Below are positions 3,559 to 64,000 of a stretch of DNA of 64,000 nt, in pieces. Below the pieces are notes generated by a model. It worked only from the letters and a program-made list of their open reading frames with translations. It was not told the origin of the DNA and ran no database searches. Origin of the DNA: Dictyostelium discoideum (lineage: Eukaryota); the NCBI GenBank assembly GCA_000004695.1, contig CM000153.2:992001-1056000 (forward strand), written 5' to 3'. Made by a program: the position numbers and the translations under genes. Each line of letters begins with the position of its first letter. Within the stretch, counting starts at the first letter, position 1.

Positions 3559-7815
<4,257 letters not shown>

Positions 7816-8312
7816 TTTTATATTACTATTTATTGTTTTTTTGTGTGGTGTGGCGTATTTTATGATTGTTCTTTTTTTTTTTTTTTTGATTTTATGTGCC
7901 TTTAATTTTTTTCTTTTTCTTTTTTTTTTTGATTTTTGATTTTTTTTTTTTTTTTTTTTTTTTTGAAAAAAAAAAAAAAAAAAATTATCTACAGTTGTGT
8001 TGATTTGCTACAAATATATATACCCTAATATTTTGTAAGAAATAGGTTTAACCATAAAAAAAAAATTAATTAAAATTAATTATAATTAAAAAAAAAAAAA
8101 AAAAAAAATGATTGAAAAAAAAAAAAAACAGACAACGCTGTCGTTCTATGGCGTTGATTAAACTTTTTTTTTTTTCCTCCTCTTCTCTTTTTTTTTTTTT
8201 AAAACTCTACCCTATTCTGTATTATTACTGATTTATATATTTAGATATCTAAATATAAAGTAATGGTGAATGTGATAGAAAGTGCACTAAATTATAAAAT
8301 AGCACTTTTTTT

Positions 8313-8721: not shown

Positions 8722-10269
8722 TTAAATAAAATGTTTTTCATATGAGAATAAACTATGTACAGAGCCTTCAACTTGAGCGGCAGCGGTTCTAACTTCGAAT
8801 CTAACTTTACCACCATAAACACTTTCACGTAAATTTGTGACAGAATTACAACCAAGATCTTGAAGACCATGTTTAATACCTTGAATGAGATATGGGACGA
8901 ATTTCTTTACGGAACCTTTATCTACAACACTACCACTAACACCTTGAGCGACTTTAATTTTATCGGTTTCACTAAAGTATCTTTGATCACCACCTTTAAC
9001 CATTGCTTCCAATGAACCCATACCACGATATTTCTTTAAACGCATACCATCCTTGTAGAAATAATCACCTGGAGCCTCTTCGGTACCGGCCAACATACTG
9101 CCCATCATTACAGAGGAAGCGCCCAATGAGAGACCTTTAATGATATGACCGATGGTACGAATACCACCGTCGGCAATGATTGGTACATTGTATTGACTAG
9201 AGTAGAGGGCACATTTGAATACGGCGGTGGCTTGAGGACGACCACATGCCATAACCTCTTGAGTGGTGCAAATGGAACCAACACCCATACCAACTCTAAG
9301 ACCATCTACACCTGCTTGGATTAAACTTTCACATTGAGAAGTGGTGACTACATTGCCACCAATAACATCGATCTTTGGATAGTTTCTCTTGATGAATCTA
9401 ATCATTTCACGTTGATAGGTTGAGTCACCTTGAGAGGAATCTAAAATAACAACATCGACACCAGCATCACTGAGTGCGGCCAAACGTTCTTTATCGGTTT
9501 CACGAGTACCCAAAGCGGCACCGACCAAGAGTTTCTTATTTTCATGGTCTTTGGTTGCCATTGGGAAATCTCTATTCTTTACAAGATCATCACGTGATGC
9601 CAATGCTACGAGCTCACCTTTATCATTTACAATTGGTAACTTTCCTTTCTTACAACTCTTTAGGATGGAATTTGCCTCCTCGAGTGTACAATTTTGTTGA
9701 CCAGTGATGAGATCGGTGGTCATTACCTCGGAGAGGGTGGTGGAACGATCCTTGATGAAATCGGTATCACGACTTGTAACAATACCCACTAATTTGCCTC
9801 CGATTCTACCAGTGTCTGTAATTGGAATACCAGAGAACCCATACTTTTGTTTGATCATATCCACATCGGATAACTTGTGTGTTGGTGATAAAACGATTGG
9901 ATCTGTGATAAAGCCATTCTTAAATCTTTTCACCTTTTTAACTTCAACAACTTGCTCTTCAACGGTATTGTTGTAATGAATGATACCAATACCACCCAAT
10001 AATGCCATATTGATTGCCATGAGATGTTCTGTAACTGTATCCATTGGTGAACTAACTAATGGAGCATTCAAACTGATATTCTTGGTTAATTTGGTCTTTA
10101 ATGATACATCATCGGCTGAGAAATTAATATGTCCTGGTAACATAATTAAATCATCATATGTATATCCATGTCTTTGTTGAAATAATTCAAAACAATCGAA
10201 TCCATCGACAAACCATTCGGATTTATATTCACTATTTGTACCTTGTAAAATTTTATTGATTTTTTCCAT
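8722..10269 (-). CDS. impdh: Inosine-5'-monophosphate dehydrogenase (IMPDH), single exon, 515 aa.
   Basis: The MEKINK start is an ATG at 10267-10269. I recognised a CBS-pair region and the catalytic loop [22 protein letters not shown]. The MGSLEAM and GGDQRYF motifs are present, the length is typical, and the frame is uninterrupted. Confidence 0.9.
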
Positions 10270-11126
10270 CTTTTTTTTTTTTTAAAAAAATTTTATTTAT
10301 TTATTTATTAATGATGGTTGGTAATAATAATAATTTTAATATGAAACAGAGTTGAATTTAAATTTGAAAATAAAAAAAAAAATTAAAATAAAAATAATAA
10401 AAAATTTTTATTTATTTAAATTTCTATTTGTGTGGTATTGAGTGTGAAGTGGAATTTGTAATTTAACTCCCCCGGAAAAAAAAAAAAAAAAAAAAAAAAA
10501 TTTTATTTATCATTTTTTTTTTTTTTTTTAATAATAAATAAAATTTAAAAAAAAATAAAATAAATTAAAAAAATATTAAAAATAAAAAAAAAAAAAAAAA
10601 AAAAAAATTAAAACGGCATAATAATATTTTTTAAACTTTTTAATAAACGGCCCTATTCACGGAACGAATTTACTTCCGGAAATCGGTTTTTCAATATTAA
10701 AAAAAAAAAAAAAAAAAAAAATAAAAAAAAAAAACTGAAAAGTCCAAAAAGGTAAGATCTTTTTTTTAAGATTTTTTTGATGGTATTAAAATTGAAAATA
10801 AAAAAAAATAAAAAATAAAAAAAATAAAAAAATAAAAATAAAAAAAAAAATAAAAATAAAAATAGATTGTTGTTAGTTTAACTCATTTATTAAGTTTTAT
10901 TAAAAAAAAAAAAAAAAATATAAAAAAAAAAAATAAAAAAATAAATAAAAATAAAACAAAAAAAGATTTTAAAAAAAAATTAACAGATCCCAAAAAATAA
11001 AATAAAAATAAACAAAAACAAAAAATAAAATAAAAATAAACAAAAAACAAAAACAAAAATAAAATAAATAAAAAAAAAAAAAAAAAAAAAGATCAGAATA
11101 AAAGATTGATTAAAACGTACATATAC

Positions 11127-11627: not shown

Positions 11628-12081
11628 TTTTTACTTAAATATTTATATATTCTTTGATTTATATTATATTATTAATTATTATTGTTATTGTTATTTTTGC
11701 TAAAGATATATTTTATTATATACACACAAATTGAATTGTTTAAATGGCAGTAAATTATAATCTGATAAATATTAACAACTATTTACTCAATGAAAAAAAA
11801 AAAAAAAATATGAAAAATTTTCGTCAAAATTTTTTTTTTTTTTTATTTTTTTAATTTTTTTTTTATTTTTTTATTTTTTTTTTTCTATTTGTTTGTTTAT
11901 TTTTTTTTATTTTTTTTTATGGAAACAATTAGATTTTGTTTGCCAAAAACTATTTTTTTTTTTTTCTTTTTTTTTGGTAAATTATTAATGTGTTTTATTT
12001 TTTGAAAGAGGAAAAAAAGTTTACTAGTAGTTTTTTACCTTTTTTCTCTCTTTTAAAAAGCTAAACACATTAATTATTCAC

Positions 12082-12129
<48 letters not shown>

Positions 12130-12198
12130 GTTTTAACTCTAACATATACACACACGCACACACACACGAATTTTTCAAAACAAATAAAAATAAACTAG

Positions 12199-12234
<36 letters not shown>

Positions 12235-12271
12235 ACTTACCTCTCGATCAAATAAAATCATAAAATGTAAC

Positions 12272-12305
<34 letters not shown>

Positions 12306-12687
12306 AAACTCAACCAAAAATGTAATCTCTTAAAGCACTACAAGTACAATCTACCAGCACCTTGGACATCAGTCAAAGAAATTTACACAGAACAAATCTC
12401 CAAATGAATTCACCCAGAACCTGCAACTTCTCTACTTCAAAAACATTAATAGTGAAGCCAATCGACAAATGGTCAACCCCACACAATCTTTCTCATCACA
12501 CCAAAAATGAAAGAAATCCAAGAATGGCACAACAGATTACCAGTCAAAAACTCCATCTATATTCAACAACCATAGAAGTCCTTTGCCCCACAACTGTATC
12601 ACCACATCCCTACTACTAAAAATCTCATAACTTTTTTTTAAAAATAATAAAAATAAAAATAAAAATCTATTTTTGAAAAATTGAATC

Positions 12688-12800
12688 GGCACTATTCTTT
12701 TAATTGGAAAAAAAAAAAAAAAAAAAAAAAAATGAATAGTGTAAGATCAATTTTTGGAAAAAAAAAAATGAATAGTGTCAGACCAATTTTTGGAAAAAAA
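12688..12800. repeat. Three copies of a roughly 17-bp motif, GAATAGTG(T/C)(A/C)AGA(T/C)CAA. Two are direct inside a 38-bp tandem duplication at 12722-12800, and one is inverted at 12688-12705.
   Basis: aatgaatagtgtaagatcaatttttggaaaaaaaaaa is followed by aatgaatagtgtcagaccaatttttgg. The inverted copy ttgaatcggcactattc is the reverse complement of gaatagtgccgattcaa. Confidence 0.6.
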
Positions 12801-12905
12801 AAAATTTAAAAGGAGAAGAATTTTTTTTTTTTTTTTACACTAATTGTTTTTATTGATAGAAGTTTCATGTAAATATTTTTAAATAGCTTTTAATATTTTT
12901 TTTTA

Positions 12906-13051
12906 ATGTTAGGAATCAAATTAATAAAAATGGAGTTAGTAAAATGTCAACCTGGTATATGCAATTGTTCATGTAAACCCGAGTCATTGATACCAACAAC
13001 AACCTCAACCTCAACAACAACAACTTCAACAACAACTTCAACAACAACTTC

Positions 13052-13083
<32 letters not shown>

Positions 13084-13243
13084 AAGATTTCAATACAGAA
13101 ACATAAAAATCACCTCAAGTTAAAAAGTCAGAAGAATTCGGATTTAAAAAGAAAACATACAATCAAGGTTATCCAAATAAATTTGTTTCAACGAAATGTG
13201 GTAATACTTGTGCCAAAAATATTATGAAAAAATCATTCAATTG
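12906..13243 (+). CDS. Possible small Cys-rich/Thr-rich secreted-type protein, MLGIKLIKMELVKCQPGICNCSCKPESLIPTTTSTSTT.... It is interrupted by an in-frame TAA at 13104-13106. The downstream in-frame segment KSPQVKKSEEFGFKKKTYNQGYPNKFVSTKCGNTCAKNIMKKSFN ends at 13243.
   Basis: Two consecutive ORFs sit in the same frame, separated by a single stop. There is no obvious intron signal across the stop. This could be a pseudogene or two separate small ORFs. Confidence 0.25.
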
Positions 13244-13464
13244 ATAATGAATCATTCATCTGTAAATGGGTTAAAGATAATGTAATTAGAATCATTTGCA
13301 GATAACATTACTGTCTCCACACTCACACACCACACCACCAAAACCTGTAAAATGCAATGAATCCAATAAACAATCATTTAAAAAATAATAATAAATAAAA
13401 TGGGTAATAATAATAATAAAAGAGTTTAAATATTTTTGTTTTAAGTTTTTATTAATTCCAATTT

Positions 13465-13548
13465 CCATTTCCCTATCTGAATTATCGATTTAACTATTTA
13501 TTTTTTTTTAAAAAAAAAAAAAAAATAGTTAAATCGATAATTCAGATA
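13465..13548. repeat. Perfect inverted repeat (hairpin) with 29-bp arms, CCCTATCTGAATTATCGATTTAACTATTT and AAATAGTTAAATCGATAATTCAGATAGGG. The arms are separated by T10A16.
   Basis: Read directly from the sequence, and the arms are exact reverse complements. It lies between convergent gene 3' ends, about 140 bp past the LMBR1-like gene stop. Confidence 0.85.
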
Positions 13549-13689
13549 GGGAAACCTAATTAATATTGAAAAATTGGATTATTTAATTAAATAATTATTT
13601 TTTATTTTTTTATTTTATTTTATTTTTTTTTTATTTTTTTTTTTTTATTTTTTTTTTTTTAAATATATATATTATATTATATAAATTAA

Positions 13690-15306
13690 TTATACACGAA
13701 TTTTAGCTGGTTTATCTTTTGGTTTAATGAATAAAAAGATAGCAGTAAGAACAGCCATAACAAAGACACCAAAGATGTAGACAACCCAGAACCATTTTAA
13801 GATTTTAAGATTTTTAACTGCAGTTTCAAAGAGTGAATTGATTGCAGTTGTTGAAGTGAATTGAGAGAAAGCCATCGTACAGAAATGAGTGATTGAGACG
13901 GAAGTGATAAGGATTAAACCAACATTGAAGAGGAAAGCATTCATCATGGTATTACCAACCCTCATAGGATGAATTGGGAAGAGGAAGAAAAGACGTAACC
14001 CAAATTTGAAATTACCCTTGACAACACAAAACAATAAATAGAATGAGAGTAAACCATAGACAATGACACCAAGGAAACCCCAAGCATTGTTCAATGCAAT
14101 GACCAAACTGTTTAAGAATGGGTGGAATGGCTCTGGTGCGGTGATCATGTAGATGATGATGTGAAGCAACCATCCAAGACTGACGCCCAATGCAACGAAG
14201 CCCCCAAAGAACTGGGCGTAGTAAAAGATGACCTTGCCACCTTGTCTCTTGTAAGAGATCTTCAAACGCTCGTAATCCTCCTCCAACAAGAAAATAGCTT
14301 GACGGAAACGATTGTAATTCTTTCTATCACGTTTGCTCATGATGCCACCCGATGTACGTGACTGGATGGTCTTGCCGATCTCCACTAACTCAGTGGCACG
14401 TTCACCAATCTTCTTCTTTCTTTCCAAATATTTGTCATATGGTATACGTTGTGGACGATTCTTAAAGTCGCCAATCATATCGAATGGCAAGGCGACCAAG
14501 CCGATACCACCGAAAATGATGAATAACAACCAACCAAAGAATGCAACCATTGTGATGATGAAAAGTGCGATGGACACACGGAATTGTAAAAATTCTTTAT
14601 CCAAACGATATTCTACATACTCCGATCCGTCTCCTAAAAGATCTGGATTTCCAGGATCGAATCTGATCCTCTCGTCATTTCCACCAATGATTGCTGCTAT
14701 CTCTGGTAATGCATATGTTATATTACTAATATCTGACATGAATGGATAGTTTAGAACTTGGAATCTACCCAATACAACAATGGTTGGAATCTCTGCCACA
14801 CCAAAGAATACATATAAAACAATGGTTAATGCTGTAAATGCAAATAGAATTGCAAATGTACCCTTGAATGCTCCTGCAATTTGACTACCTGCTCCTGGAT
14901 CTGCTTCTTCTGATTCATAGAAGAACATTGCAAATGGGCAAATAACAACTGCAAATACTGCCACTGCAATATATATAATAATCCATAATATATCCATAGG
15001 AAATCCACCACTTCCTCCATCATTTGCTACATCCAATGGTAACATTAAAATACTTGTTGCTGCTAATGTTAAACCTAAAATCTATAATTATAAAAAATAA
15101 AAAGTTATTAGATATTTTTCAGATATTTTTATTTTAAATTTAAAATAAAAATGGAAAAAAAAAAAAAAACTTACAACAATAATTTTCGGGAAATAGGCAA
15201 CATTTTTGTCATCTGGATGTTGGAAATATGCAATTAAATACAAACTTGCTAAAACTACAAGTGCTGGTATAACAACAGCAATAATAATTAAGAAGACGTT
15301 AACCAT
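13690..15306 (-). CDS. LMBR1-domain multi-pass membrane protein (LMBR1/LMBD-like), complement(join(13690..15081,15175..15306)).
   Basis: Exon 1 reads [44 protein letters not shown] from ATG 15304-15306 and is followed by a GTAAGT donor. The acceptor tatAG is at 15082-15083. Exon 2 is in phase 0, [23 protein letters not shown].... I count about 9 TM helices, and the overall pattern resembles LMBR1 family proteins. Confidence 0.7.
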
Positions 15307-15969
15307 CCTCTTTTATTTTATTTATTATATTTATTTTTTTCTTTTTTTTTTTTGTATTATTTATATTATATTCGTATGTGATTATTTTTATTTATTAATT
15401 TATTTTTTTTTTATTTATTTATTTTAAAAGTACGGAAAAAAAAAAAAAAAAAGATTTTATTTGTTGATGAGTTTGTGTGTGTTGGTTTTGATTTTTTTTT
15501 TTTTCTTTTTTTTTTTTTTAATTTAAAAAAAAAAAAAAAATTAAAAAATTATATAATTAAATAAATAAAATGATTGAAATAATAGACAAAACAAAAAAAA
15601 AAAAAAGAAAAGAAAAAAAAAATAAAAAAAAAAAAAGATTAATTAAAAAAATATAAAATACCCAGTGGTAGAGAAAAAAAAAAAAAAAAAAAAAAAATAA
15701 AAAAAAAAATAAAAAAAATTTTTTTATACCAGAGCCTAAAAAAAAAAATTAAAAAAAAAATAAAAAAAATTTAAAAAAAAAAAAGACCCCACGTTTTTTT
15801 TTTAAAAGTTATAAAAAATACAACGTGGTCGTCTGTAAGACAATTGTAATTCGATGAAAATTTTTGTGGTTTTGGGAATTAATAAAAATGAAAATAATTA
15901 AAAGAGGAGGAAATAAAATATACATTGCAAATATTACAAAATAAGTGTTAAATTGAGAATTTTATAACA

Positions 15970-16018
<49 letters not shown>

Positions 16019-17390
16019 GAATATTTTTTTTTTTCCCAAAATTAGTTAAAAACCAATAATTAAAATATTCAAAAATGTAAGTGGAGAAAAAAGGAATATT
16101 AAAAAAAAAGATGGTTTGGTTAAAATAGAAAACCAAAGATCACTTAGTTTTAGCAAAATTGGGATAAGTTTTAAAACTTTTTTTTATTTTTTAAAAATAA
16201 ATATTACTATATTTATTTTTTTCCAACATTTAAATCTATTTTAATCCAGTCCCTCCTTTTTATAATAAAATTTTTAAGGCTAAAAAGATTTAATTCTTGT
16301 TATAATAACTCTCCTTTTTAAATTAAAAGGAAATATAAAAAAAAAAAAAAAAAAAAAAATTTTTAGGCATTAATTATTTTATTATAAAAAAATATTATTT
16401 AACTTTTTTAAATTTTCCTATCTCATTTGAGCCCAGCTTTTCAAAGTAATAAATTTAAAATTATTTATTATTTTTAATTTTTTTTTTTTTTTTTTTCTTT
16501 TTCAAATAATGGTTTGAAAAAAAAAAAGAATTACAAAATGGTAAATAAAAAAAAAAAAAATAATAATAGTTTAAAAAAAGATAATTAAAAAAAAAAAAAA
16601 AGGATTAGATAGAATATTTATAACTTTTTTTTTTATTCAAAATATATTATTTTTATTTTTATTTTTTTTAAATTTTTTATTTATTTTTTATTTATTTTTT
16701 ATTAATTTTTTTAAAAAAAAAAATTTTTAAAAAAAAAAACACACAAAGAAATTATTTATTTTATATTTTTAGAAACCCCATTTAAAAACAGTGTAAATAT
16801 TTAATTATTTAATATATAAATATCTTTCTTATAAAATAATTATTTTTTTTTTTTTTATTTTTTAATTTTTTTATAGTTTTATTGATAAAGTTAACTTTAA
16901 TTTATTTTATTTTTTTATTTTTTTTTTATTTTTTTTGTTTAAGTTAACCTTATTTTTTTATTTATTTTTTTTTTGACGCGTGACCTTACATGAAATAACA
17001 CCACCAACATGTTGTCACGTACCCGGATTTCATTTTAGAAATCATAAAAAACGGCCAACCGCTGTTATTTAATTTTTTTTTTTTAATTTTTTTTTTTTTT
17101 TTTTTTTTTTTGGATTTTTTTTTTTTTTTTTTTAAAAATTATTTTTTTTTTTTTTTTTATTTTTTTTTTATTGGTTTCTTTTCACCAAATTTCAATAAAA
17201 TTTTTTTAATTTTTTATTTTTTATATATTCCTAATAAAATTTTTTTTTTTTTTTTTTATTAAATCAAAAACTCTCAATACCAATAGATTTTATATCATTA
17301 CATTCCTATAGATATTATATTCAAAACCAAAAAGTCAAAAGGTTTTTTTTTTTTTTTTTTTTTCAGTAACATTAACAAATAAAGCAAAAT

Positions 17391-31250: not shown

Positions 31251-31672
31251 CGAAAATTCAAACATGATCAAAAAACTTTTTTCTTTAAGGACGTCATGGG
31301 TTAAACATTTGTTTTTTTACTTTTTTTATAAAATTAACAAAAAAAAATAAAAATAAAATAAGGCTGAAAATAAAAATAGAAAGGAATAGATTATATTATT
31401 TATTTTTTTTATTTTTCAAGTTCATTACAGGAAAAAAACAAAAAAAAAAAAAAAAACCTTTTAATTAAATATCATTAAAACCCCCAATCCCAGTATCAAT
31501 AGCAGGCTTTTTTTATATTTTTAGTTTTGGAAAAAAAAAAAAAAAAAAAATTTAAAAAATTTAAAATAGTAAACTTTAAATAGCCAAAATAAATTTTTTT
31601 AAAAAAAAATTACACCCTTTAGTTAATTCCCATAATAATAATAATAATACTTTACAAACTTTAAAAAAAAAA

Positions 31673-36620: not shown

Positions 36621-37466
36621 AATATAATTGAAAGATTAAAAAAAATAAAATAAAAACAAAAAAGATTTTTATAGATAATCCCAAAAATTATTTTATTTAC
36701 ATTTTATATTATTTTTTTTTTTTTTGATCATTGTTTTTTAGATTTTTTTTTTTTGTCATAATTTTATTGATTTTTTAAACAATATAAAATTTTCTTTTTT
36801 ACCACATTTGTTTTCATAAACACTATAATTTGTTATTTTATAAAATATCTTCTTTTTTTAAAATTTCAAATGCAATTGAGGCAATAAACCAATAATAATT
36901 TAAATAATATTTAAATTTTTTTTTTTTTTTAAAAAATATAAAAAAAGGTAATTAAATTTATTAAAAAACTTCCCTCGGGATATCCAAAATAATGATTTAA
37001 ACAAGTGAAGTAAATAAAATTAAAATTAGTAAATTTTTTTACTAAAATTTAAAATAAAATCCAATAACATTGAAATTGATACTATCTGTTGTAATATAAT
37101 TATGTAATAATTAAATTGTTACAATTATGTTTTATCAAGATATTAAATTATATACAATCTCCCTCACAAACTAAAATAATTTATGTTTATATAATTAGAC
37201 TTTTCTCACCTGGGTGGGAAAAAGCCACGTGGTGAGTTTTTAATGTCGATTGAAAAACTCACAAACATAATTTTAAATCTCAAATATATTGTGTTAATGT
37301 TCAACAACTATCCTTATTTATTTTTAAAAAAAAAAAAAAAAAAAAATATTTATCTCATAATAAAATTATTCTAAAAGTCTAGTTTTTTCCTTTCTCCCCG
37401 AAACAAGAAAAAGAATAAAAATAAACTTGATATTAAAATTTAGGATAAAAAATCTATTGTATAAAT

Positions 37467-37583: not shown

Positions 37584-39872
37584 ATGGATACATTATCATT
37601 ATTTTTAGGATCAAAGGTAATAATAATAATTAGATTATTATTATTATTATTATTATTATAATTATTATTTTAAAATTAAAACCATATAATATTAATAATA
37701 TTTCTTTTATTTTAGGGTGAAAATAAAAAATTATTTAGCCAACTTTCAAAAATGGTATTAAACTCTGCAATTGATTCAAGAATTCAATACTGTGGTAATG
37801 AACCTTCAATTTTTGAAGATGATTATTTTGAATCTGATAATTTTAAAAAATCAAGTGAATTAATTAAAGAAAATACAAAGTTAATTTGTAATTATATTAA
37901 AGATTCTACTCAATTTTCAAGTTTACGATATCAAGCTCATATGATAGAAGATCCTTTAATTCCAAGTTTTATTGGTACAATTTCAGGCCTTTATTATAAT
38001 ACTAATACATGTACTCCTCAAGTTTCTAATAAATCTTCCTTTATTGAACATGCATTTGCTAGTGACCTATGTTCAATGGTAGGTTATGATACAAGTAAAA
38101 TACCAGATTATTATAATTCAATGAAAACAGTTTCAATAAAAGAAATAATTAAAAGAGAAGTTGAAACTGTATATCCTCATGGTCATAATACTAGTGGTGG
38201 TTCAGTATCAAACATTGAAGCATGTTGGTCAAGTTATTGGGTTAAATTTATTCCAGTTGCAATTAAAAATGCATTATTAAATGAAAATGATTTAATTGAT
38301 TCCAGGGAATTAACAATTACCCTAAATGATTGTAAAACTAATAAACAATTAATTGAATGTACAAATTGGGAATTATCAAATTTAAATGGAGATTTATCAG
38401 TAAAATTACCATATCAAATAAGTTTAGAATGTAATTTACCAATTGAAAATGTTTATGAAATTATTAAAAGATATCATTCGTGTTCATTGGGTGCATATCG
38501 GTTTTTTGTGGATAATCAAATTAATCAACCAATTTATTTAATACCAGCATCAGCTCATTATTGTTTTAAAAAAGCAGTATGTTTGATTGGATTAGGTTCA
38601 ACAAATATAAAATTAATAAAAATTGAACCAAATGGTAGAATAAATATAAATGATGTGAAAATGATTATTAAAAATTGTATTGAGAATCAAATTCCAATTA
38701 TTAATATCATATCGATATTAGGTTCAACCCAAGAGTATGGTGTCGATAATATTGATGAAATAGTTTCAATTAGAAATCAAGTAAGAAGAGACTTGAATTT
38801 TAATTTTGAAATGCATGTAGATGGTGCATTCGGTGGATATTCATTATCATGTATTAGAGATAACTTTCAATTGGAAAATCCATTAGATGATCAATTATTA
38901 TTTCCTAATAATATTGAAAATGAAAATAACAATCAAAATGAAATTGATTCATTTGATCCAGAATTAATAATTAGTAGTTATGTTAAAAAACAATTACATG
39001 CTTGTAAATTTGTAGATTCAATTACATTGGATGGTCATAAATCTGGCTTTTTACCATTTTCAAATAGTACAATTTGTTATAGAAATTCAAAGTATAAAGA
39101 TATTATTACACTCTCTTCTGCTTATATAGATATCTGTAAAAAGAATATTCCAAACTGTGGCGTGTTTGGTATTGAAGGTTCTCGTCCAGGTTATTCTTCA
39201 ATCGCAGGTTATTTAACTCATTCAATAATTCGTCCTTCGAAAATTGGATATGGTAAAATTTTAAAAAGATGTATTTTTAATGCAAAATTATTTTATATAT
39301 CCTTGTTAATTAAATTCGATGGTAATAATGGTAATAATATAAAAGTGTTTACAGTTGGTAATAATCCATCAAGTGATGTTTTAAATTATTTAAAAACAGA
39401 AATAATCGATTCGAATACTGGTAAAATCAAATCATTAGATCAAATTGTATCAAATAAAACATTATTACAAATTTTATCAAATTATGGAGCAGATTTAAAC
39501 GGTGTTTGTTTTGGTTTTAATTTTATTTCACCTTCAACTGGCGAATTAAATAATGATTATCAAAAATATGTAGAACTTAATAAAATGATAATTGATAGAT
39601 TCGATTATTCAAGAGGACCTGAAGCAGATTTGATATTTGGAAATACATTTTTAAATAATAGTTATGGTAATGAATTTATTTCAAATTTCCTTGAAACAAA
39701 TGAATTAAAAATTAATATCCCTATCTATAATAAAATCAAAATTCCAATACTAAGGTCATCAACTATGTCACCTTTTATTAGTGAAACATCTGAAGGTTCA
39801 TATATTGATATTATGCTTTACCTATTATTAAAAGAAATTACAGGTTTTTTATTTTCAATTGATAAATTATAA
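37584..39872 (+). CDS. Group II PLP-dependent decarboxylase-like protein, copy 1, about 717 aa, join(37584..37616,37716..39872).
   Basis: Exon 1 is ATGGATACATTATCATTATTTTTAGGATCAAAG (MDTLSLFLGSK), followed by a GTAATA donor. The acceptor ttttAG is at 37714-37715. Exon 2 in phase 0 begins GENKKLFSQLSKMVLNS.... The fold-type I / group II motifs are HNTSGGSVSNIEA, ILGSTQEYGVDNIDEI, MHVDGAFGGY, and the PLP-lysine motif SITLDGHKSGFLPFSNS. Confidence 0.75.
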
Positions 39873-41127
39873 TTAAGATAATAAATATTAAATAAAAAAT
39901 ATAAATATAAAAATAATACATAATCAATAAAGAATCATTAGAAATCTTAAAATGATAATAAATTTAGTATCAATGATTTTTTAATTTATCAATTATTAAA
40001 TAAATAATTTGATTAGGTGGTGTTTAATTATTTTTTTTTTTTTTTTTTTTGGAATTTATTATTAATTAAAAAAAAAAGTTTTATGATCTAACCCTATAGA
40101 TTCAAAATTCATACTAAATATTATTGACACAATTTTATCACTCACACAAGAGTATAAAATAATACAAAAGTGTTTTTAAAAATCATTATTAATGATTAAT
40201 AGATACACGTCCACCCCAAAATGGGTTATAAACAGCCAGTACAGCCCAAAGTGCACAACTAAATGCTTGTACGGGCTGTATGCAGAATCGATAGGGTTAG
40301 ATAATTACACTTTTTTATCCAATATTGTATTTATTTATTTATTTATTTATTTTTTTATAAAAAAATATTTTATTTAATTTAAATTTACACATATGAACAT
40401 ATCTGGAAAGTGGGTCATTAAAATAAAAAAAACTTTTTTTTTTAATTTTAATTAAATTTAATTTAAAATTAATTAAATTTAATAAAAATGGACATCTGTT
40501 TTAAATAATAAAGTAAAAATTGGTATATCTGTTTTAAACATTTTAATATAATTATTAAAATTTAATAAAATTTTATAATTATTATTTAAATTATTAATGA
40601 AATTAATTAAATTCTAAAAATACATTGGGTTATTAATATAACAAGATATTCTAAAACCGTATTAAAATTTCAAAAAAAAATTTCTTTGTTGCGATGAATT
40701 AGTTTTTCACAAGAGATTATATACCTTACAATAAAAAAGAATATCATTTTTTAAAAAGTAGATAAATGGATAATTAAGTAGATAATGGGATAAAAAAGTA
40801 AGATAATATTTTATGGAGTTATAATTTTAAACATATATTCTTTAATACCCGAAATTTCCTGTTTATTTAAAATTTATATTTGATAATTTTTCAAAATAAA
40901 CCAATATTAATTTGAATAGTGTTAGGTTTTTAATTTGAAATTTATAAATCGTGATAAATCTCTAAACAATTACTAATTAAATTTATATTAATTCTATAAA
41001 ATAAAAAAGTAAAATAAAAAACATTAAAAAAAAAAAAAATTTAAAACTTAATTTTTAAATTCGAAAAATTAATTAGTTATTTTAAAAATTTATATTGAAG
41101 ATAATTATAAATAAAGAATATTTTGAA

Positions 41128-43392
41128 ATGGATTCTTTATCATTATTTTTAGGATCAAAGGTAATATCTTTATATTATTATTATAAATCTCAAACCATAT
41201 TAATTAATTTTTTTTTTTTTTTAAAAAAAAATTAGGGTGAAAATAAAAAATTATTTTCTGAACTTTCAAAAATGGTATCAAACTATGCAATTGATTCAAG
41301 AATTAAATATAGTGGTAATGAACCTTCAATTTTTGAAGATGATTATTTTGAATCTGATGATTTTATAAAATCAAGTGAATTAATTAAAGAAAATACAAAA
41401 TTAATTTGTAATTATATTAAAGATTCTACTCAATTTTCAAGTTTAAGATATCAAGCTCATATGGTTACTGATCCCTTAATTCCAAGTTTTATTGGTACAA
41501 TTGCTGGTCTTTTTTATAACTCTAATATATGTACTACTCAATCTTCTAATAAAACTTCCTTTATTGAATATGAATTTGCAAATGATCTTTGTTCGATGGT
41601 AGGTTATGATACAAGTAATATACCAGATTATTATAATTCAATCAAAACAGTTTCTATAAAAGAAAAAGTTCAAAGAGAATTTGAAACTGTATATCCACAT
41701 GGTCATAATACTAGTGGTGGTTCAGTATCAAACATTGAAGCATGTTGGTCAAGTTATTGGGTTAAATTTATTCCAGTTGCAATTAAAAATGCATTATTAA
41801 ATGAAAATGATTTAATTGATTCCAAAAATTTATTTATTACATTAGAAGATGGTAAAACCAATAAATTATTAATTGAATGTACAAATTGGGAATTATCAAA
41901 TTTAAATGGTGATTTATCAGTAAAATTACCATATCAAATAAGTTTAGAATGTAATTTACCAATTGAAAATGTTTATGAAATTATTAAAAGATATCATTTA
42001 TGCTCATTAGGTACATTTAAATTTTTTGTAAAAAATAAAATTAATGAACCAATTTATTTAATACCAGCATCAGCTCATTATTGTTTTAAAAAGGCAGTAT
42101 GTTTGATTGGATTAGGCTCAGATAATATAAAACTAATAAAAATTGAACCAAATGGTAGAATGAATATAAATGAAGTAAAAACGATTATTAAAAACTGTAT
42201 TGAAAATCAAATTCCAATCATTAATATCATATCGATATTAGGTTCGACTCAAGAGTATGGTGCTGATAATATCGATGAAATTGTTTCAATTAGAAATCAA
42301 GTAAGAAGAGACTTTAATTTTAATTTTGAAATGCATGTAGATGGTGCGTTCGGTGGATATTCATTATCATGTATTAGAGAGAACTTTTGGTTGAAAAATC
42401 CATTAGATTATCAATTATCATTACCTAATAATTTTGAAAATGAACAAAATAATCAAAACGAAACTGATTCATTTGATCCAGAATTAATAATTAGTAGTTT
42501 TTTAAAAAAACAATTACATGCTTGTAAGTTTGTAGATTCAATTACATTGGATGGTCATAAATCTGGCTTTTTACCATTTTCAAATAGTACAATTTGTTAT
42601 AGAAATTCAAAGTATAAAGATATTCTAACATTAGCTCCTGTTTATGTCGATGATGGAAAAAAGAATATTCCAAACTGTGGTGTGTTTGGTATTGAAGGTT
42701 CTCGTCCTGGTCATTCTTCAGTTGCAGGTTATTTAACTCATTCAATAATTCGTCCTTCGAAAAACGGATATGGTAAACTTTTAAAAAGATGTATTTTAAA
42801 TTCGAAATTATTTTATATTTCCTTGTTAATTAAATTCGATGGTAATAATGGTAATAATATAAAAGTGGTCACAGTTGGTAATAACCCATCCAGTGATGTT
42901 TTAAATTATTTAAAAACAGAAATCATCGATTCGAATACTGGTAAAATCAAATCATTAGATCAAATTGTATCAAATAAAACATTATTACAAATTTTATCAA
43001 ATTATGGAGCAGATTTAAACGGTGTTTGTTTTGGTTTTAATTTTATTTCACCTTCAACTGGTGAATTAAATAATGATTATCAAAAATATGTAGAACTTAA
43101 TAAAATGATAATTGATAGATTCGATTATTCAAGAGGACCTGAAGCAGATTTGATATTTGGAAATACATTTTTAAATAATAGTTATGGTAATGAATTTATT
43201 TCAAATTTCCTTGAAACAAATGAATTAAAAATTAACATTCAAGCCTATAATAAAATCAAAATTCCATTACTCAGGTCATCAACTATGTCACCTTTTATTA
43301 GTGAAACATCTGATGGTTCATATATTGATATAATGCTTGACCTATTATTAAAAGAAATTACAGATTTTTTATTTTCAATTGATAAATTATAA
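41128..43392 (+). CDS. Group II PLP-dependent decarboxylase-like protein, copy 2, a tandem paralogue about 90% identical to copy 1, join(41128..41160,41236..43392).
   Basis: Same two-exon structure as copy 1. Exon 1 reads MDSLSLFLGSK and is followed by a GTAATA donor. The acceptor attAG is at 41234-41235. The protein is collinear with copy 1 and has the same motifs, including DGHK. Confidence 0.75.
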
Positions 43393-43535
43393 TAAAGATA
43401 ATTTTGAATAAAAAATTAAAAAAAAAATACTTTACATACCCAAAAAAGAACATTAAATATGGATTTCTAGAAATTAATAAAAGTTTAATATCAATACTTT
43501 TTAAAATTTAATAAATTATTAGACGAGGTGGTGTT

Positions 43536-43579
<44 letters not shown>

Positions 43580-44029
43580 TTTCTAGAAAAGTCTTAAAAA
43601 TTAATTATCTTTTAGTTTGTATATTAAAAATAACGTAGAAAGATATGAGCGTTTGGCTTATTTATTGTTGTAGTTTTGTTTTTTAGTTTTTTTAATAAGG
43701 ATAGTCTCCTCTTTTTTTATTTTTTTTATTTCTCCTTATTTTTTTTTTTATAATAATAATGAAAATTTTTTTTTAAAGAAAAAAGAATAGTGTAAGGGGA
43801 GCAGAAAAGAAAATAAAAAATAATATTAAACAAAGAATAGACCAACCGACCAGCGCCACATAAAATTACTTTTCACCACTTTAATGATGGAGTTTTTATA
43901 TCCAGCCAACCTTAGAATAGTGTTTAGGTATTGAGACAATGTTAAATCTTTGGGTAGAGTGTTGTTTTGTTTGAAAGTGTATTCTATTGGGCTATTAAAA
44001 AGTTTTAAATTTTTTAATCTTGGTGTTAG

Positions 44030-45896
44030 GATCAAAGGTAATAATTTTATATTATTATTATTATAAATTTCATACCATATTAATTATAATTTTTACAAAT
44101 TAGGGTGAAAATAAAAAATTATTTTCTGGTCTTTCAAAAATGGTATTAAACTCCGTAGTTGATTCAAGAATTCATATAGGGGTAATGAACCTTCAATTTT
44201 AGAAGACGATTATTAAAGATTCTACTCAATTTTCAAGTTTTAGATATCAAGCTCATATGGTTGTTGATCCTTTAGTTCCAAGTTTATTGGTACAATTGCT
44301 GGTCTTTTTTATAATTCTAATATCTGCACTCCTCAATCTTCTAATAAATCCTCCTTTATTGAAAGTGCATTTACAAATGATCTACGTTCGATGGTAAGTT
44401 ACGATACAAGTAAAATACCAGATTATTATAATTCAATCGAAACAGTTTCAATAAATGAAACAATTAAAAGAGAATTTGAAACTGTATATCCACATGGTCA
44501 TAATACTAGTGGTGGTTCAGTATCAAATATTGAAGCATGTTGGTCAAGTTATTGGGTTAAATTTATTCCAGTTGCAATTAAAAATGCATTATTAAATGAA
44601 AATGATTTAATTGACTCGAAAAATTTATAAATTACACTAGAAGATGGTAAAACCAATAAATTATTAATTGAATGTACAAATTGGGAATTATCAAATTTAA
44701 ATGGTGATTTATCAGTAAAATTACCATATCAAATATGTTTTGAATGTAATTTACCAATTGAAAATGTTTATGAAATTATTAAAAGATATCATTTATGTTC
44801 ATTAGGTACATTTAAATTTTTTACAAATAATCAAATTAATGAACCAATATATTTAATACCAGCATCGTCTTGTCTTAAAAAGGCAGTATGTTTGATTGGA
44901 TTAGGTTCAGATAATATAAAACTAATAAAAATTGAACCAAATGGTAGAATGAATATGAATAAAGTAAAAATGATTATAAAAGATTGTATTGAAACCAAAT
45001 TCCAATAATAAATGTCATATCGATATTAGGCTCAACTCAAGAGTATGGTGTTGATAATGTTGATGAAATATTTTCAATTAGAAATCAAGTAAGAAGAGAC
45101 TTTAATTTTAATTTTGAAATGCATGTAGATGGTGCGTTCGGTGGATATTCATTATCATGTAGTAGAGATAACTTTCAATTGGAAAATCCATTAGATGATC
45201 AATTATTATTTCCTAATAATATTGAAAATGATGATAACAATCAAAATGAAATTGTATCATTTGATCCAGAATTAATAATTAGTAGTTATTTTATGCTTGT
45301 AAATTTGTAGATTCAATTACATTGGATGGTCATAAATCTGGTTATTTACCATTTTCAAATAGTACAATTTGCTACAGAAATTCAAAGTATAAAGATGTTC
45401 TTACATTAGCTCCTGTTTATGTCGATGATGGAAAAAAGAATATTCCAAACTATGGTGTGTTTGGTATTGAAGGTTCTCGTCTAGGTCATTCTTCAGTTGC
45501 AGGTTATTTAACTCATTCAATAATTCGTCCCCTTCAAAAAGTGGATATGGTAAACTTTTAAAAAGATGTATTTTAAATTCGAAATTATTTTATAATTCAC
45601 TATTAACGAAATTCGATGGTAATAATGGTAATAATATAAAAGTGTTTACAATTGGTAATAATCCATCAAGTGATGTTTTAAATTATTTAAAAACAGAAAT
45701 AATCGATTCGAATACTGGTAAAATCAAATCATTAGATCAAATCGTATCAAATAAAACATTATTATAAATTTTATCAAATTATGGAGCAGATTTAAACGGT
45801 GTTTGTTTTGGTTTTAATTTTATTTCGCCTTCTACTGGTGAATTAAATAATGATTATCAAAAATATGTAGAACTTAATAAAATGATAATTGATAGA
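44030..45896 (+). pseudogene. Decayed third tandem copy of the PLP-decarboxylase-like gene. The start codon is lost, and there are internal deletions, frameshifts and premature stops. It ends abruptly at 45896.
   Basis: It matches copies 1 and 2 at the nucleotide level across the exon-1 remnant and intron (ggatcaaag gtaataat...attagggtgaaaataaaaaattatttt). The match breaks into three short ORFs (44391-44630, 45119-45310, 45322-45561) that carry the HNTSGGSVSN, MHVDGAFGGY and DGHKSGYLPF motifs in different frames. In-frame TAA codons occur, for example ...DSKNL*. Confidence 0.8.
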
Positions 45897-46050
45897 TTAG
45901 ATGATTTATTGGAACATTTAAATGGAATTTTAATTTTATTTTAATTTTCTTAAAATTTGATATTTTTTTTTTTTTTGTGTAATTCTTGGGAATAAAACCA
46001 ATTAAAAAATTAAAATTTCAACCTGTAATAAAATCTCAGTGTAAACACTC

Positions 46051-46440: not shown

Positions 46441-46775
46441 CCAATCAAACAATACTAATCAAAAAATATAAAAGTTAATCTATATTCGAAAGATTTATAC
46501 ATATTAATAAATTTTAATTTTAAATTATAATAATTTTATTTTATTTTTTTTCTTCAATTATAACTATTTTATTTAATTTTCATTCTTCTCGAGATTAAAT
46601 AACCTAATAAATTTTAAAAAAAAAAAAACCAAATCATAATTATTAATCATCTTGAATTAAAATACAAATTAATAAAATTTTAAAACTTTTCAGACAATAA
46701 GAAAAACATAAATATATTTTTTTTTTAATAAAATCAATCAATCAATCAATCAAAAAAAAAAAAAAAAAAAAGAAA

Positions 46776-63824: not shown

Positions 63825-64000
63825 TATACTATTATTAGAGGAAATAGTATTTGACGCTATTAAATTTGGATCCTCTAAAAAAGTTGAGGAACTTGGAGTT
63901 GAAATTTCACTACTACATGAACTACTTGAGTTTGAGTGAAATCTTGGGGAAACACCACGTGGTGATAGTGGCCTAAAGCCAATTGAAAAAATATTATTAT
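61164..64000 (-). CDS. Cdc25-like M-phase inducer phosphatase with a rhodanese/CDC25 catalytic domain at the C-terminus. It is 5'-partial, and the ORF remains open to the window edge.
   Basis: The C-terminus carries the HCEFSSKRAP active-site signature (CX5R) within a rhodanese fold, [20 protein letters not shown]. The frame is open upstream of the track's TTG 'start' at 63584, through poly-N, to beyond 63999. The true start is therefore outside the window or in an upstream exon. Confidence 0.7.

What the first reader, a model, noticed from the sequence alone, without database searches (positions are those of the whole stretch)
10620..10700. Recurrent GC-containing palindromic islands 350-500 bp upstream of start codons
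In intergenic DNA that is otherwise 95% or more A+T, short islands with G/C palindromes recur at similar distances upstream of genes. At 10620-10700 (IMPDH) the island reads aaaacggc...cggccctattcacggaacgaatttacTTCCGGAAatcgg. At 15790-15850 (LMBR1-like) it reads gaccCCACGTT...AACGTGGtcg. At 16970-17060 (OSBP) it reads gACGCGTGACc...gGTCACGTAc...aaaaacggccaaccgctg. At 37200-37260 (decarboxylase copy 1) it reads CTCACCtgggtgggaaaaagCCACGTGGTGAG, a near-perfect 13-bp inverted repeat around a CACGTG E-box. At 40230-40290 there is also tacagccc-N25-gggctgta with an internal GTGCAC. The shared CCACGTGG, AAAACGGC and TTCCGGAA cores suggest a common promoter architecture or a conserved factor-binding module.
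Basis: seen in the sequence. Interest (0 to 1): 0.5.

Follow-up and report, generated by a model that had tools for sequence, protein, structure and literature searches.

The report
Mixed G/C islands upstream of Dictyostelium genes
The short G/C-containing islands in this AT-rich Dictyostelium discoideum DNA are real, but three look like ordinary gene-specific upstream promoter elements and two lie inside strain-specific, transposon-like insertions, so they do not form one shared palindromic module.

Summary
The window is Dictyostelium discoideum AX4. G/C bases in the spacers are clustered: 19 islands against 5.2 expected.

The unifying idea does not hold.
- The inverted repeats are not above shuffles for IMPDH and OSBP.
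- Words shared between islands are at chance (p 0.35-0.55).
- TTCCGGAA occurs once. CCACGTGG occurs once in non-coding DNA.
- Only about 10 of 24 genes have an island.

The islands fall into two kinds.

(A) IMPDH, LMBR1 and OSBP, plus an unlisted island upstream of a kinase gene.
- They lie 310-545 bp upstream of the ATG.
- Each is followed on the gene's sense strand by a T-rich tract.
- Each is kept at the same place and orientation in D. citrinum, D. firmibasis and D. dimigraforme.
- The LMBR1 island follows its gene through an inversion.
- These are most likely gene-specific factor-binding upstream elements, a long-known kind in Dictyostelium.
- Constraint beyond shared ancestry is only weakly shown.

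(B) The two decarboxylase islands.
- They lie in 220-bp and 259-bp segments that are absent from another D. discoideum isolate and from the sister species.
- Both have transposon-like ends.

Overall the finding is ordinary and of low interest.

The parts
10611..10687 (-). IMPDH upstream island, -342..-418 from ATG 10269. On the + strand it reads AAACGGC (10611), AAACGGCC (10645), ACGGAACGAA (10660), TTCCGGAA (10674) and ATCGGT (10682).
   Evidence: Sequence. The blocks ACCGAT, TTCGTTCCG, GGCCGTTT and a second CCGTTTT are kept in D. citrinum, D. firmibasis and D. dimigraforme at -277..-382. The TTCGTTCCG block is inverted in D. firmibasis. TTCCGGAA is not kept. 7-13 of its 37 G/C-containing 8-mers are shared with the orthologous spacer, against 0 in non-orthologous spacers.
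10440..10530 (-). Probable core promoter of IMPDH. On the sense strand it is TAAATAAAA, then a 25-nt T run, then a complex block (CCGGGGGAGTTAAATTACAAATTCCACTTCACACTCAATACCACAC) at about -205..-160.
   Evidence: The block GAAGTGGAATTT (10446-10457) is identical in three sister species. The transcription start is inferred, not mapped.
15789..15860 (-). LMBR1 upstream island, -483..-554 from ATG 15306. It contains CCACGTT (15789) and AACGTGG (15822) as a 7-bp inverted repeat 26 bp apart, plus the distal TCGTCTGTAAGACAATTGTAATTCGATGAA.
   Evidence: The sense-strand GACCACGTTGTA preceded by GAATTGCATTT is kept at -507..-631 in D. citrinum, D. firmibasis copy A and D. dimigraforme (GACCACGTCGA). 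The second arm is AACGTT in two species, so the inverted repeat itself is not kept. The island stays upstream of LMBR1 although the gene is inverted relative to IMPDH and OSBP in D. firmibasis, D. dimigraforme and D. purpureum.
16974..17066 (+). OSBP upstream island, -325..-417 from ATG 17391. It reads GACGCGTGACCTTACATGAAATAACACCACCAACATGTTGTCACGTACCCGGATTTCATTTTAGAAATCATAAAAAACGGCCAACCGCTG.
   Evidence: GACCTTACA, AACACCAC, CCGGATTTCA, AATCA, AAAACG and CCAACYGC are kept in three sister species at -260..-400. ACGCGT, GTCACGT and the GATTTC/GAAATC hairpin are not kept. D. purpureum has an island at -357..-447 sharing GGATTTC and ACGTGACA (7-mer sharing p=0.018, uncorrected for 12 tests).
8127..8157 (-). 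It lies -312..-342 from the ATG (7815) of a 1388-aa protein kinase gene. The sense strand reads CAACGCCATAGAACGACAGCGTTG.
   Evidence: The dyad CAACG(C)-N9-13-(G)CGTTG is kept in D. citrinum, D. firmibasis and D. dimigraforme. It is followed by a T-rich tract.
37087..37306 (.). 220-bp segment that contains the whole 'decarboxylase copy 1' island (37203-37262). It starts TGTTG and ends CAACA. It is flanked by the direct repeat ACTATC at 37081-37086 and 37307-37312.
   Evidence: The segment is present in AX4 and in assembly GCA_054883475.1. It is absent, with well-aligned flanks, from D. discoideum isolate assembly GCA_054859385.1 (L013). It has no counterpart in D. citrinum, D. firmibasis or D. 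dimigraforme. The internal 10-bp inverted repeat has p=0.003. The DNA fold z-score is -2.7.
40065..40323 (.). 259-bp element bounded by 39-nt imperfect terminal inverted repeats (82% complementary, with a 17-nt near-perfect core TCTAACCCTATMGATTC). It contains the 40230-40290 island and the TACAGCCC-N25-GGGCTGTA hairpin.
   Evidence: Terminal repeats are. The inner 213 nt fold at -55.8 kcal/mol against -29.7 for shuffles, z=-7.5. The element is absent from the homologous spacer of isolate L013, from D. cf. discoideum and from the sister species. It lies 805-1063 bp upstream of the dec2 ATG and 193-451 bp downstream of the dec1 stop codon.

Best explanation
The five islands are two different things.

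(A) Gene-specific upstream promoter elements. These are the IMPDH, LMBR1-like and OSBP islands, plus an unlisted island upstream of the kinase gene.
- Each is a 30-90 bp block of complex, G/C-containing sequence 310-545 bp upstream of the ATG.
- Each is followed on the gene's sense strand by a 100-150 bp T-rich tract with a 21-25-nt T run.
- For IMPDH this tract is followed by a TATA-like box and a conserved complex block where transcription probably starts.
- The inferred mechanism is as follows. In spacers that are otherwise about 85-94% A+T, these blocks are the only DNA with enough information for sequence-specific transcription factors. Each carries its own set of short sites and acts as an upstream activating or regulatory element for the adjacent gene.
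- What is shown: position, orientation, retention in sister species and linkage to the gene.
- What is inferred: factor binding and an effect on transcription.

(B) Strain-specific inserted segments. The two decarboxylase islands lie inside 220-bp and 259-bp segments.
- One has a 6-bp flanking direct repeat and TG...CA ends. The other has 39-nt terminal inverted repeats.
- Both are missing from another D. discoideum isolate and from the sister species.
- They are most likely relics of small non-autonomous mobile elements, and their palindromes are part of the element's own structure.

No motif or palindrome is common to the set.
For: Identity of the window. The IMPDH protein is an exact match to D. 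discoideum AX4 XP_638973.1.

Clustering. There are 19 islands against 5.2 +/- 2.0 expected.

Class A islands.
- The islands sit at -277..-418 (IMPDH), -260..-421 (OSBP) and -473..-631 (LMBR1) in four to five species, in the same orientation relative to the gene.
- Island 8-mers with at least 3 G/C are shared with the orthologous spacer (1-13 per island and species) and almost never with non-orthologous spacers (0-3).
- Alignments show the retained blocks.
- In D. firmibasis the TTCGTTCCG block is inverted while the GGCCGTTT block is kept. This suggests the words are kept but not their arrangement.
- LMBR1 is inverted relative to its neighbours in three species, and the island stays upstream of it.
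- G/C bases in the four islands are retained at 0.79, 0.58 and 0.63 (D. citrinum, D. firmibasis, D. dimigraforme). G/C bases at four-fold degenerate sites of IMPDH are retained at 0.52, 0.56 and 0.46.
- The sense strand downstream of the four islands is 58-76% T with T runs of 21-25 nt. The dec islands have 36-50% T and T runs of 6-10 nt.

Class B islands.
- There is a clean 220-bp gap in isolate L013, flanked by ACTATC repeats.
- The other element has 39-nt terminal inverted repeats and is absent from L013.
- Sequence similarity between the paralogous decarboxylase promoters extends only about 130 bp upstream of the ATG, so it excludes both islands.

Literature. [quoted passage not shown] 1990 and Schnitzler et al. 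1994).
Against: - Within the same spacers, G/C-containing 8-mers outside the islands are retained in sister species about as often as those inside: 0.15-0.19 against 0.11-0.28. The islands are therefore not singled out by conservation. The three sister species may simply be too close, with four-fold-site identity of 0.67-0.74.
- Best-local-alignment identity is inflated by optimisation. Null alignments to non-orthologous spacers give roughly 0-0.65, mostly about 0.2-0.45.
- D. purpureum shows at most marginal word sharing: OSBP p=0.018 uncorrected, IMPDH 0.11, LMBR1 not significant.
- A further island upstream of PIP5K-GPCR (31478-31508, at -622..-652) is not retained in D. citrinum or D. dimigraforme.
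- No transcription-start, accessibility, binding or expression data were available.
- For class B, a deletion between 6-bp repeats in the other isolate is an alternative to an insertion in AX4. No second copy of either element was found in the roughly 330 kb of Dictyostelium DNA held. No target-site duplication was identified for the 259-bp element.
Confidence: 0.6

Rival explanations
1. The islands share a palindromic factor-binding module (CCACGTGG E-box or G-box, AAAACGGC, TTCCGGAA) that defines a common promoter architecture placed 350-500 bp upstream of start codons.
For: AAACGGC occurs 4 times in the window against 1.1 expected, and 3 of the 4 copies are in the IMPDH and OSBP islands. 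CCACGTK occurs at 5 sites against about 1.8 expected matches. Four of the five islands lie 320-545 bp from an ATG. The kinase island has a dyad, CAACGC...GCGTTG, that is kept in four species.
Against: Word sharing between islands equals that of shuffled islands (p 0.35-0.55 for the five islands, 0.06-0.33 for nine). TTCCGGAA is a single, chance-level occurrence and is not kept in sister species. The only non-coding CCACGTGG lies in a strain-specific 220-bp segment. ACGCGT, GTCACGT and the LMBR1 inverted repeat are not kept. The inverted repeats in the IMPDH and OSBP islands are at chance. No island matches a strict Myb (YAACKG) or E2F consensus. About 14 of 24 genes have no island.
Confidence: 0.08
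2. The islands are neutral compositional relics. They would be leftovers of old insertions, decayed exons or mobile elements that AT-biased mutation has not yet eroded. Their presence in sister species would reflect only recent common ancestry.
For: G/C-containing words inside and outside the islands are retained at the same rate. Two of the five islands are demonstrably in insertion/deletion segments. The PIP5K island is lineage-specific. D. purpureum shows almost no sequence retention. Motif sharing is at chance.
Against: 8-mer retention in islands is 0.28, 0.17 and 0.11. Four-fold-site identity to the eighth power predicts 0.09, 0.04 and 0.07, even before indels are counted. G/C retention in the islands exceeds that at four-fold G/C sites in two of three species. 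The distance and orientation to the ATG are maintained. G/C islands also sit at matching distances in D. purpureum for OSBP, LMBR1 and, weakly, IMPDH. The D. firmibasis rearrangement keeps the words. The downstream T tract is strand-specific.
Confidence: 0.2
3. Some islands are small non-coding RNA genes or structured RNA elements rather than DNA-level promoter elements. For example, the OSBP island could be a Class I RNA and the 40085-40297 element a novel structured RNA.
For: The OSBP island folds with z=-3.8 on the + strand. It contains a 6-bp stem, CGTGAC/GTCACG, enclosing about 47 nt. Next to the 5' arm it has CCTTACATGAA, which matches 9 of 11 positions of my recalled Class I motif CCTTACAGCAA. 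That recalled motif agrees with the invariant positions given in PMC7919456. The 40085-40297 element folds with z=-7.5.
Against: No Rfam family matches, either at gathering thresholds across the whole window or at E<=1-10 around the islands. There are no tRNAs. The OSBP candidate lacks a DUSE about 60 nt upstream and lacks the CUGU 3' end. It has G at the near-invariant C9 position. Its stem is not maintained in D. citrinum, D. firmibasis or D. dimigraforme (criteria from PMC7919456). The IMPDH and kinase islands show no significant fold, and the LMBR1 island only a modest one (z -2.0 to -2.7) from the CCACGTT/AACGTGG repeat, whose second arm is not kept in sister species. The 40085-40297 structure is closed by terminal inverted repeats, and the element is absent from a conspecific isolate. 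Both points fit a mobile element better.
Confidence: 0.05

Closest known systems
G/C-rich upstream regulatory elements of Dictyostelium promoters, such as the G-boxes and CA-rich elements bound by G-box binding factor GBF. The response element is (T/G)G(T/G)G(T/G)G(T/G) (PMC2257962, citing Hjorth et al. 1990 and Schnitzler et al. 1994).
   Same: These are also short G/C-containing blocks embedded in very AT-rich 5' spacers, a few hundred bp upstream of the ATG, and specific to particular genes.
   Different: The conserved islands here (IMPDH, LMBR1, OSBP, kinase) contain no KGKGKGK heptamer. Only the strain-specific dec1 and dec2 segments have one each (TGGGTGG at 37211 and CCACCCC at 40211). 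No binding or reporter data exist for any of them.
The classical Dictyostelium core promoter layout of a TATA box followed by an oligo(dT) stretch just upstream of the transcription start. This rests on my own knowledge (Kimmel and Firtel 1983). I did not find it in the searchable library.
   Same: Each class A island is followed on the sense strand by a tract that is 58-76% T with a 21-25-nt T run. For IMPDH there is also TAAATAAAA and a conserved complex block.
   Different: The transcription starts are not mapped here. The islands lie upstream of this layout and are not part of it.
Miniature inverted-repeat elements and solo LTR-like relics. Small non-autonomous elements with terminal inverted repeats are described in the D. 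discoideum repeat literature. This rests on my own knowledge and was not checked here.
   Same: The 259-bp element has 39-nt terminal inverted repeats and folds strongly. The 220-bp segment has TG...CA ends and a 6-bp flanking direct repeat. Both show presence/absence between D. discoideum isolates.
   Different: No second copy was found in the DNA available. No target-site duplication was found for the 259-bp element. I could not compare either with named families such as thug, DDT, DGLT-A or Skipper LTRs.
Class I RNA genes of dictyostelids (PMC7919456).
   Same: The OSBP island has a 6-bp stem enclosing about 47 nt, with an 11-nt motif-like sequence next to the 5' arm.
   Different: It has no DUSE and no CUGU end. 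The invariant C9 is not met. The stem is not conserved in sister species.

Membership tests
Dictyostelium G/C-rich upstream promoter element (generic) | A short G/C-containing block in an AT-rich 5' spacer, clustered beyond what composition gives. | tested here: met
   19 islands against 5.2 +/- 2.0 in shuffled spacers.
Dictyostelium G/C-rich upstream promoter element (generic) | Lies upstream of the core promoter (TATA, oligo-dT, transcription start) of the gene it serves. | tested here: inconclusive
   A sense-strand T-rich tract with 21-25-nt T runs follows the IMPDH, LMBR1, OSBP and kinase islands but not dec1, dec2 or dec3. Transcription starts are not mapped.
Dictyostelium G/C-rich upstream promoter element (generic) | Retained in orthologous promoters. 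| tested here: inconclusive
   The IMPDH, LMBR1, OSBP and kinase islands are retained in three close species. They are no better retained than other G/C words of the same spacers. Retention in D. purpureum is marginal. The dec1, dec2 and PIP5K islands are not retained.
Dictyostelium G/C-rich upstream promoter element (generic) | Needed for transcription in deletion or reporter assays, and bound by a factor. | not testable with these tools
   This needs experiments, or overlay of the published ATAC-seq data (PMC8094536).
GBF G-box / CA-rich element | Two closely spaced (T/G)G(T/G)G(T/G)G(T/G) half-sites. | tested here: not met
   There is no heptamer in the IMPDH, LMBR1, OSBP or kinase islands. 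There is a single heptamer in each of dec1 and dec2.
E-box / G-box CACGTG site (bHLH or bZIP) | CACGTG is present in the islands and conserved. | tested here: not met
   The window has 5 CACGTG, of which 4 are coding (three noted; the fourth, at 63956, shown to be coding). The only non-coding one (37226) lies in a 220-bp segment that is absent from isolate L013 and the sister species.
Myb binding site YAAC(G/T)G (consensus from my own knowledge) | A strict consensus match in the islands. | tested here: not met
   No island has a YAACKG match. AACG or CGTT accounts for 9 of the 19 CpGs in the four conserved islands, against 24-32% expected, which is a weak excess.
E2F site TTTSSCGC | A consensus match in the islands. 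| tested here: not met
   No match was found.
Class I RNA gene (PMC7919456) | A DUSE about 60 nt upstream, a 6-bp terminal stem that is conserved, the 11-nt motif with invariant T3, C6, C9, A10 and A11, and a CUGU 3' end. | tested here: not met
   The OSBP island has the stem and T3, C6, A10 and A11. It has G at position 9, no DUSE and no CUGU, and the stem is lost in sister species.
MITE / solo-LTR-like mobile element relic | Terminal inverted repeats, or TG...CA ends with a flanking target-site duplication. | tested here: met
   The 259-bp element has 39-nt terminal repeats, 82% complementary. The 220-bp segment has TGTTG...CAACA ends and ACTATC direct repeats. No target-site duplication was identified for the 259-bp element.
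MITE / solo-LTR-like mobile element relic | Presence/absence polymorphism at an otherwise colinear site. | tested here: met
   Both segments are absent from D. discoideum isolate L013, with the flanks aligned.
MITE / solo-LTR-like mobile element relic | Multiple related copies in the genome. | not testable with these tools
   There is no other copy in the window or the 13 loci. The full D. discoideum genome is not searchable by DNA here.

The most novel reading that the evidence does not exclude
The two strain-specific inserted segments may be promoter rewiring by small mobile elements caught in the act. They carry ready-made factor sites: TGGGTGG plus CCACGTGG in the 220-bp segment, and CCACCCC plus an ACGT core in the 259-bp element. 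They lie upstream of recently duplicated, copy-number-variable decarboxylase genes. If they give AX4 a regulation of these genes that other isolates lack, that is mobile-element-driven rewiring. Separately, the AACG-containing words kept in the IMPDH, OSBP, LMBR1 and kinase islands could be sites of one uncharacterised factor.
Probability: 0.12. Interest if true: 0.45.

Novelty: new member of a known kind. Interest (0 to 1): 0.22.

Why it matters
Short G/C-containing blocks in Dictyostelium's AT-rich spacers have been known as candidate regulatory elements since the promoter dissections of the 1980s and 1990s, so the general observation adds little.

The useful results are specific.
- The report gives coordinates and retained sub-blocks for four previously undissected promoters (IMPDH, LMBR1-like, OSBP and a kinase). 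These can go straight into reporter constructs.
- It shows that palindromes seen by eye are mostly not the conserved part.
- It is a caution that G/C islands in Dictyostelium spacers are a mixture. Two of the five lie in strain-specific, transposon-like insertions. Genome-wide motif searches that pool all islands would be contaminated by such elements.

Tried and rejected
- Rfam and tRNA scans. Rfam found nothing at gathering thresholds over the whole window or in permissive scans around the islands, apart from two chance-level hits below threshold. ARAGORN found no tRNAs.
- Class I RNA reading of the OSBP island and of the 40240 hairpin. I rejected it for lack of a DUSE, a CUGU end, C9 and stem conservation.
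- Unmasked blastn with word size 7 timed out on the low-complexity DNA. An unmasked run with short queries flooded the output with poly-A/T matches.
- The conserved-block scan from pairwise blastn covered only part of the spacers. It showed that conserved non-coding blocks are not limited to G/C islands.
- Global MAFFT misplaced the 220-bp gap. I redid the alignment with an affine-gap aligner.
- The look-up of the PIG-X ORF found no exact product, so genes in 19-31 kb are placed from ORFs and from orthologous loci only.
- The idea that the decarboxylase paralogues share their islands was rejected. Promoter similarity ends about 130 bp upstream of the ATG.
- AACG as a shared core shows only a weak excess. 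There is no strict Myb, E2F or heat-shock-type array.
- Literature searches for CACGTG or AACGG with Dictyostelium returned only primer sequences. I found no searchable paper for the TATA/oligo-dT layout.
- The second CCACGTGG at 63955 turned out to be coding.
Full report
**What the window is.** The 515-aa ORF at 8722-10269(-) is identical to IMP dehydrogenase of Dictyostelium discoideum AX4 (XP_638973.1). I placed the genes using Pfam and annotated contigs of a D. discoideum assembly mapped back to the window.

The start codons are:
- a 1388-aa kinase (-), ATG at 7815
- IMPDH (-), 10269
- a 93-102-aa gene (-), 11627
- LMBR1-like (-), 15306 (first exon seen)
- OSBP (+), 17391
- PIP5K-GPCR (-), 30856
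- three tandem PLP-decarboxylase genes (+), 37585, 41128 and 44140.

Rfam and tRNA scans of the window found nothing.

**Check of the observation.**
- Every quoted string is in the sequence at, or within about 10 bp of, the stated place.
- The flanks are 82-94% A+T, not 95% or more.
- Distances to the ATG are 374-410 bp (IMPDH), 483-545 (LMBR1), 320-418 (OSBP) and 348-388 (dec1). They are 836-930 bp for the 40230 island relative to dec2.
- G/C bases are clustered. There are 19 islands (20-bp windows with at least 50% G+C) in 15 kb of well-annotated spacer. Dinucleotide shuffles of each spacer give 5.2 +/- 2.0, with a maximum of 11.
It lies 312-342 bp upstream of the kinase ATG.
- The scan also showed that about 14 of 24 genes have no island.

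**Palindromes and shared cores.**
- Against dinucleotide shuffles of each island, the best inverted repeat is unremarkable for IMPDH (p=0.57) and OSBP (0.27). It is borderline for LMBR1 (0.05), the kinase (0.07) and dec2 (0.03). It is significant only for dec1 (0.003).
- The number of 6-, 7- and 8-mers shared between islands is what shuffled islands give (p 0.35-0.55 for the five islands, 0.06-0.33 for nine).
- AAACGGC is over-represented, with 4 copies against 1.1 expected and 3 of them in the IMPDH and OSBP islands. This motif was chosen after the fact.
- TTCCGGAA occurs once, at chance level.
- CCACGTGG occurs twice, and one copy is inside an open reading frame.
- No island matches a strict E2F or Myb consensus. 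CACGTG is found only in dec1. GBF-type heptamers occur only in dec1 and dec2.

**Orthologous promoters.** I fetched the syntenic loci of D. firmibasis, D. purpureum, D. citrinum and D. dimigraforme, of a D. cf. discoideum assembly and of a divergent D. discoideum isolate.

- *IMPDH.* The island is present at -277..-382 in the three close species. The blocks ACCGAT, TTCGTTCCG, (G)GGCCGTTT and a second CCGTTTT are retained. TTCCGGAA is not. In D. firmibasis the TTCGTTCCG block is inverted while the other blocks are kept.
- *OSBP.* The island is at -260..-400. GACCTTACA, AACACCAC, CCGGATTTCA, AATCA, AAAACG and CCAACYGC are retained. ACGCGT, GTCACGT and the GATTTC/GAAATC hairpin are lost in D. firmibasis and D. 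dimigraforme.
- *LMBR1.* The core GAATTGCATTT...GACCACGTTGTA is at -507..-631. The second arm of the inverted repeat is AACGTT in two species.
- *Kinase.* The dyad CAACG(C)-N9-13-(G)CGTTG is kept in all four species.
- *Specificity.* Island 8-mers with at least 3 G/C are shared with the orthologous spacer (1-13 per island and species) and almost never with non-orthologous spacers (0-3).
- *Inversion.* LMBR1 lies on the same strand as IMPDH in D. discoideum and D. citrinum. It lies on the opposite strand in D. firmibasis, D. dimigraforme and D. purpureum. The island stays upstream of LMBR1 in the same relative orientation. This ties the island to that gene.

**How strong the conservation argument is.** It is only moderate.
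- In the same spacers, G/C-containing 8-mers outside the islands are retained as often as those inside: 0.15-0.19 against 0.11-0.28.
- Four-fold degenerate sites of IMPDH are 0.74, 0.67 and 0.72 identical in the three close species and 0.59 in D. purpureum. Neutral 8-mer retention would therefore be about 0.09, 0.04 and 0.07. The spacer words in general, not the islands specifically, exceed this.
- G/C bases in the four islands are retained at 0.79, 0.58 and 0.63. G/C at four-fold sites is retained at 0.52, 0.56 and 0.46. Optimised local alignments inflate the island figures.
- In D. purpureum there are G/C islands at matching distances for OSBP and LMBR1, and a weaker one for IMPDH. Word sharing is marginal there: OSBP 7-mers p=0.018 uncorrected, IMPDH 0.11, LMBR1 not significant.
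- The PIP5K island is not retained at all.

**Architecture.** On the sense strand of the assigned gene, the 150 bp after the IMPDH, LMBR1, OSBP and kinase islands are 58-76% T, with T runs of 21-25 nt. The decarboxylase islands have 36-50% T and T runs of 6-10 nt. For IMPDH the order is island, T-rich tract, TAAATAAAA, a 25-nt T run, and then a complex block whose core is identical in three sister species. This fits the classical Dictyostelium TATA/oligo-dT/start layout, which I know from memory and could not find in the library. It places the island roughly 150-200 bp upstream of a probable, unmapped start.

**The two decarboxylase islands are something else.**
- The whole spacer upstream of dec1 cannot be aligned to the sister species. 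The paralogous promoters resemble each other only within about 130 bp of the ATG.
- Against the divergent D. discoideum isolate (L013), the dec1 spacer aligns well except for one clean gap. AX4 has 220 extra bases (37087-37306) that begin TGTTG and end CAACA. They are flanked by ACTATC on both sides. The whole dec1 island lies inside this segment.
- The 40230 island lies inside a 259-bp element (40065-40323) bounded by 39-nt terminal inverted repeats, 82% complementary, with a 17-nt near-perfect core.
- The inner 213 nt of that element fold far better than shuffles, z=-7.5.
- The element is missing from the homologous spacer of L013, from D. cf. discoideum and from the sister species.
- Both segments therefore look like small mobile-element relics, or at least insertion/deletion polymorphisms. 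Their palindromes belong to the element.
- A deletion in the other isolate cannot be excluded. No second copy was found in the DNA I hold.

**RNA-gene alternative.**
- The OSBP island folds with z=-3.8 and superficially resembles a Class I RNA. It has a 6-bp stem enclosing about 47 nt, followed by CCTTACATGAA.
- It lacks the DUSE, the CUGU end and the invariant C9, and the stem is not kept in sister species.
- The IMPDH and kinase islands show no significant structure, and the LMBR1 island only a modest one (z -2.0 to -2.7) from its inverted repeat, whose second arm is not kept in sister species.

**Comparison with what is known.** G/C-rich elements in AT-rich Dictyostelium promoters are an established class of regulatory element. 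PMC2257962 summarises the GBF response element and cites Hjorth et al. 1990 and Schnitzler et al. 1994. The class A islands are new, uncharacterised examples of that kind, but they are not GBF sites. The class B segments resemble MITE-like or solo-LTR-like relics.

**Verdict.** The interpretation as a promoter element is partly supported for three of the five islands. The idea of one common palindromic module is not supported. Novelty is low: these are new members of a known kind. Interest is low. The strain-specific inserted segments upstream of copy-number-variable decarboxylase genes are a modest side result.

Noticed in passing
window 13690-15306, compared with L001, L002, L003, L004: The LMBR1-like gene is on the same strand as IMPDH in D. 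discoideum and D. citrinum. It is inverted in D. firmibasis, D. dimigraforme and D. purpureum. D. firmibasis and D. purpureum carry two tandem copies.
   Followed up: partly
window 11900-13560: This is about 1.7 kb of relatively G/C-rich DNA (about 25% G+C) with a strong C-over-G skew and no ORF longer than 85 aa. It contains eight G/C islands and cannot be aligned to any sister species. It may be a D. discoideum-specific insertion or a decayed element. It also has a DUSE-like CCCCACAA near 12590.
   Followed up: partly
window 37585-45944; L009, L010, L011, L012, L013: The 729-aa PLP-decarboxylase genes form a tandem array whose copy number varies. There is 1 copy in D. citrinum, 2 in D. firmibasis and D. 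dimigraforme, and 3 in AX4 (the third only 450 aa). D. cf. discoideum has at least 5, with a DDE_Tnp_4 transposase fragment inside the array. The nearest non-dictyostelid relatives are bacterial, at 30-33% identity.
   Followed up: partly
window 8722-10269: D. discoideum IMPDH is 68-72% identical to IMPDH of Vampirovibrio, Melainabacteria and cyanobacteria. In this search these rank directly after the dictyostelid proteins. That is unusually high and may indicate horizontal transfer.
   Followed up: no
window 63951-63962: The perfect 12-bp palindrome CACCACGTGGTG lies inside an open reading frame (...PLSPRGVSP...) of the rhodanese-domain gene. It is coding sequence, not a promoter site.
   Followed up: yes
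window 8226-8245, 17274-17301, 46466-46709: Several AT-rich but non-repetitive spacer blocks are identical in two or three sister species, for example TACTGATTTATATATTTAGA upstream of the kinase. Conserved non-coding sequence is therefore not confined to G/C islands.
   Followed up: no
L003 5090-5310: D. citrinum carries an (ATT)n microsatellite of about 220 bp in the LMBR1-OSBP spacer. It is absent from D. discoideum.
   Followed up: no
L013 (assembly GCA_054859385.1, labelled D. discoideum): This isolate is only about 92% identical to AX4 in coding DNA at this locus, and its decarboxylase array is arranged differently. This suggests a cryptic species or a very divergent lineage.
   Followed up: no
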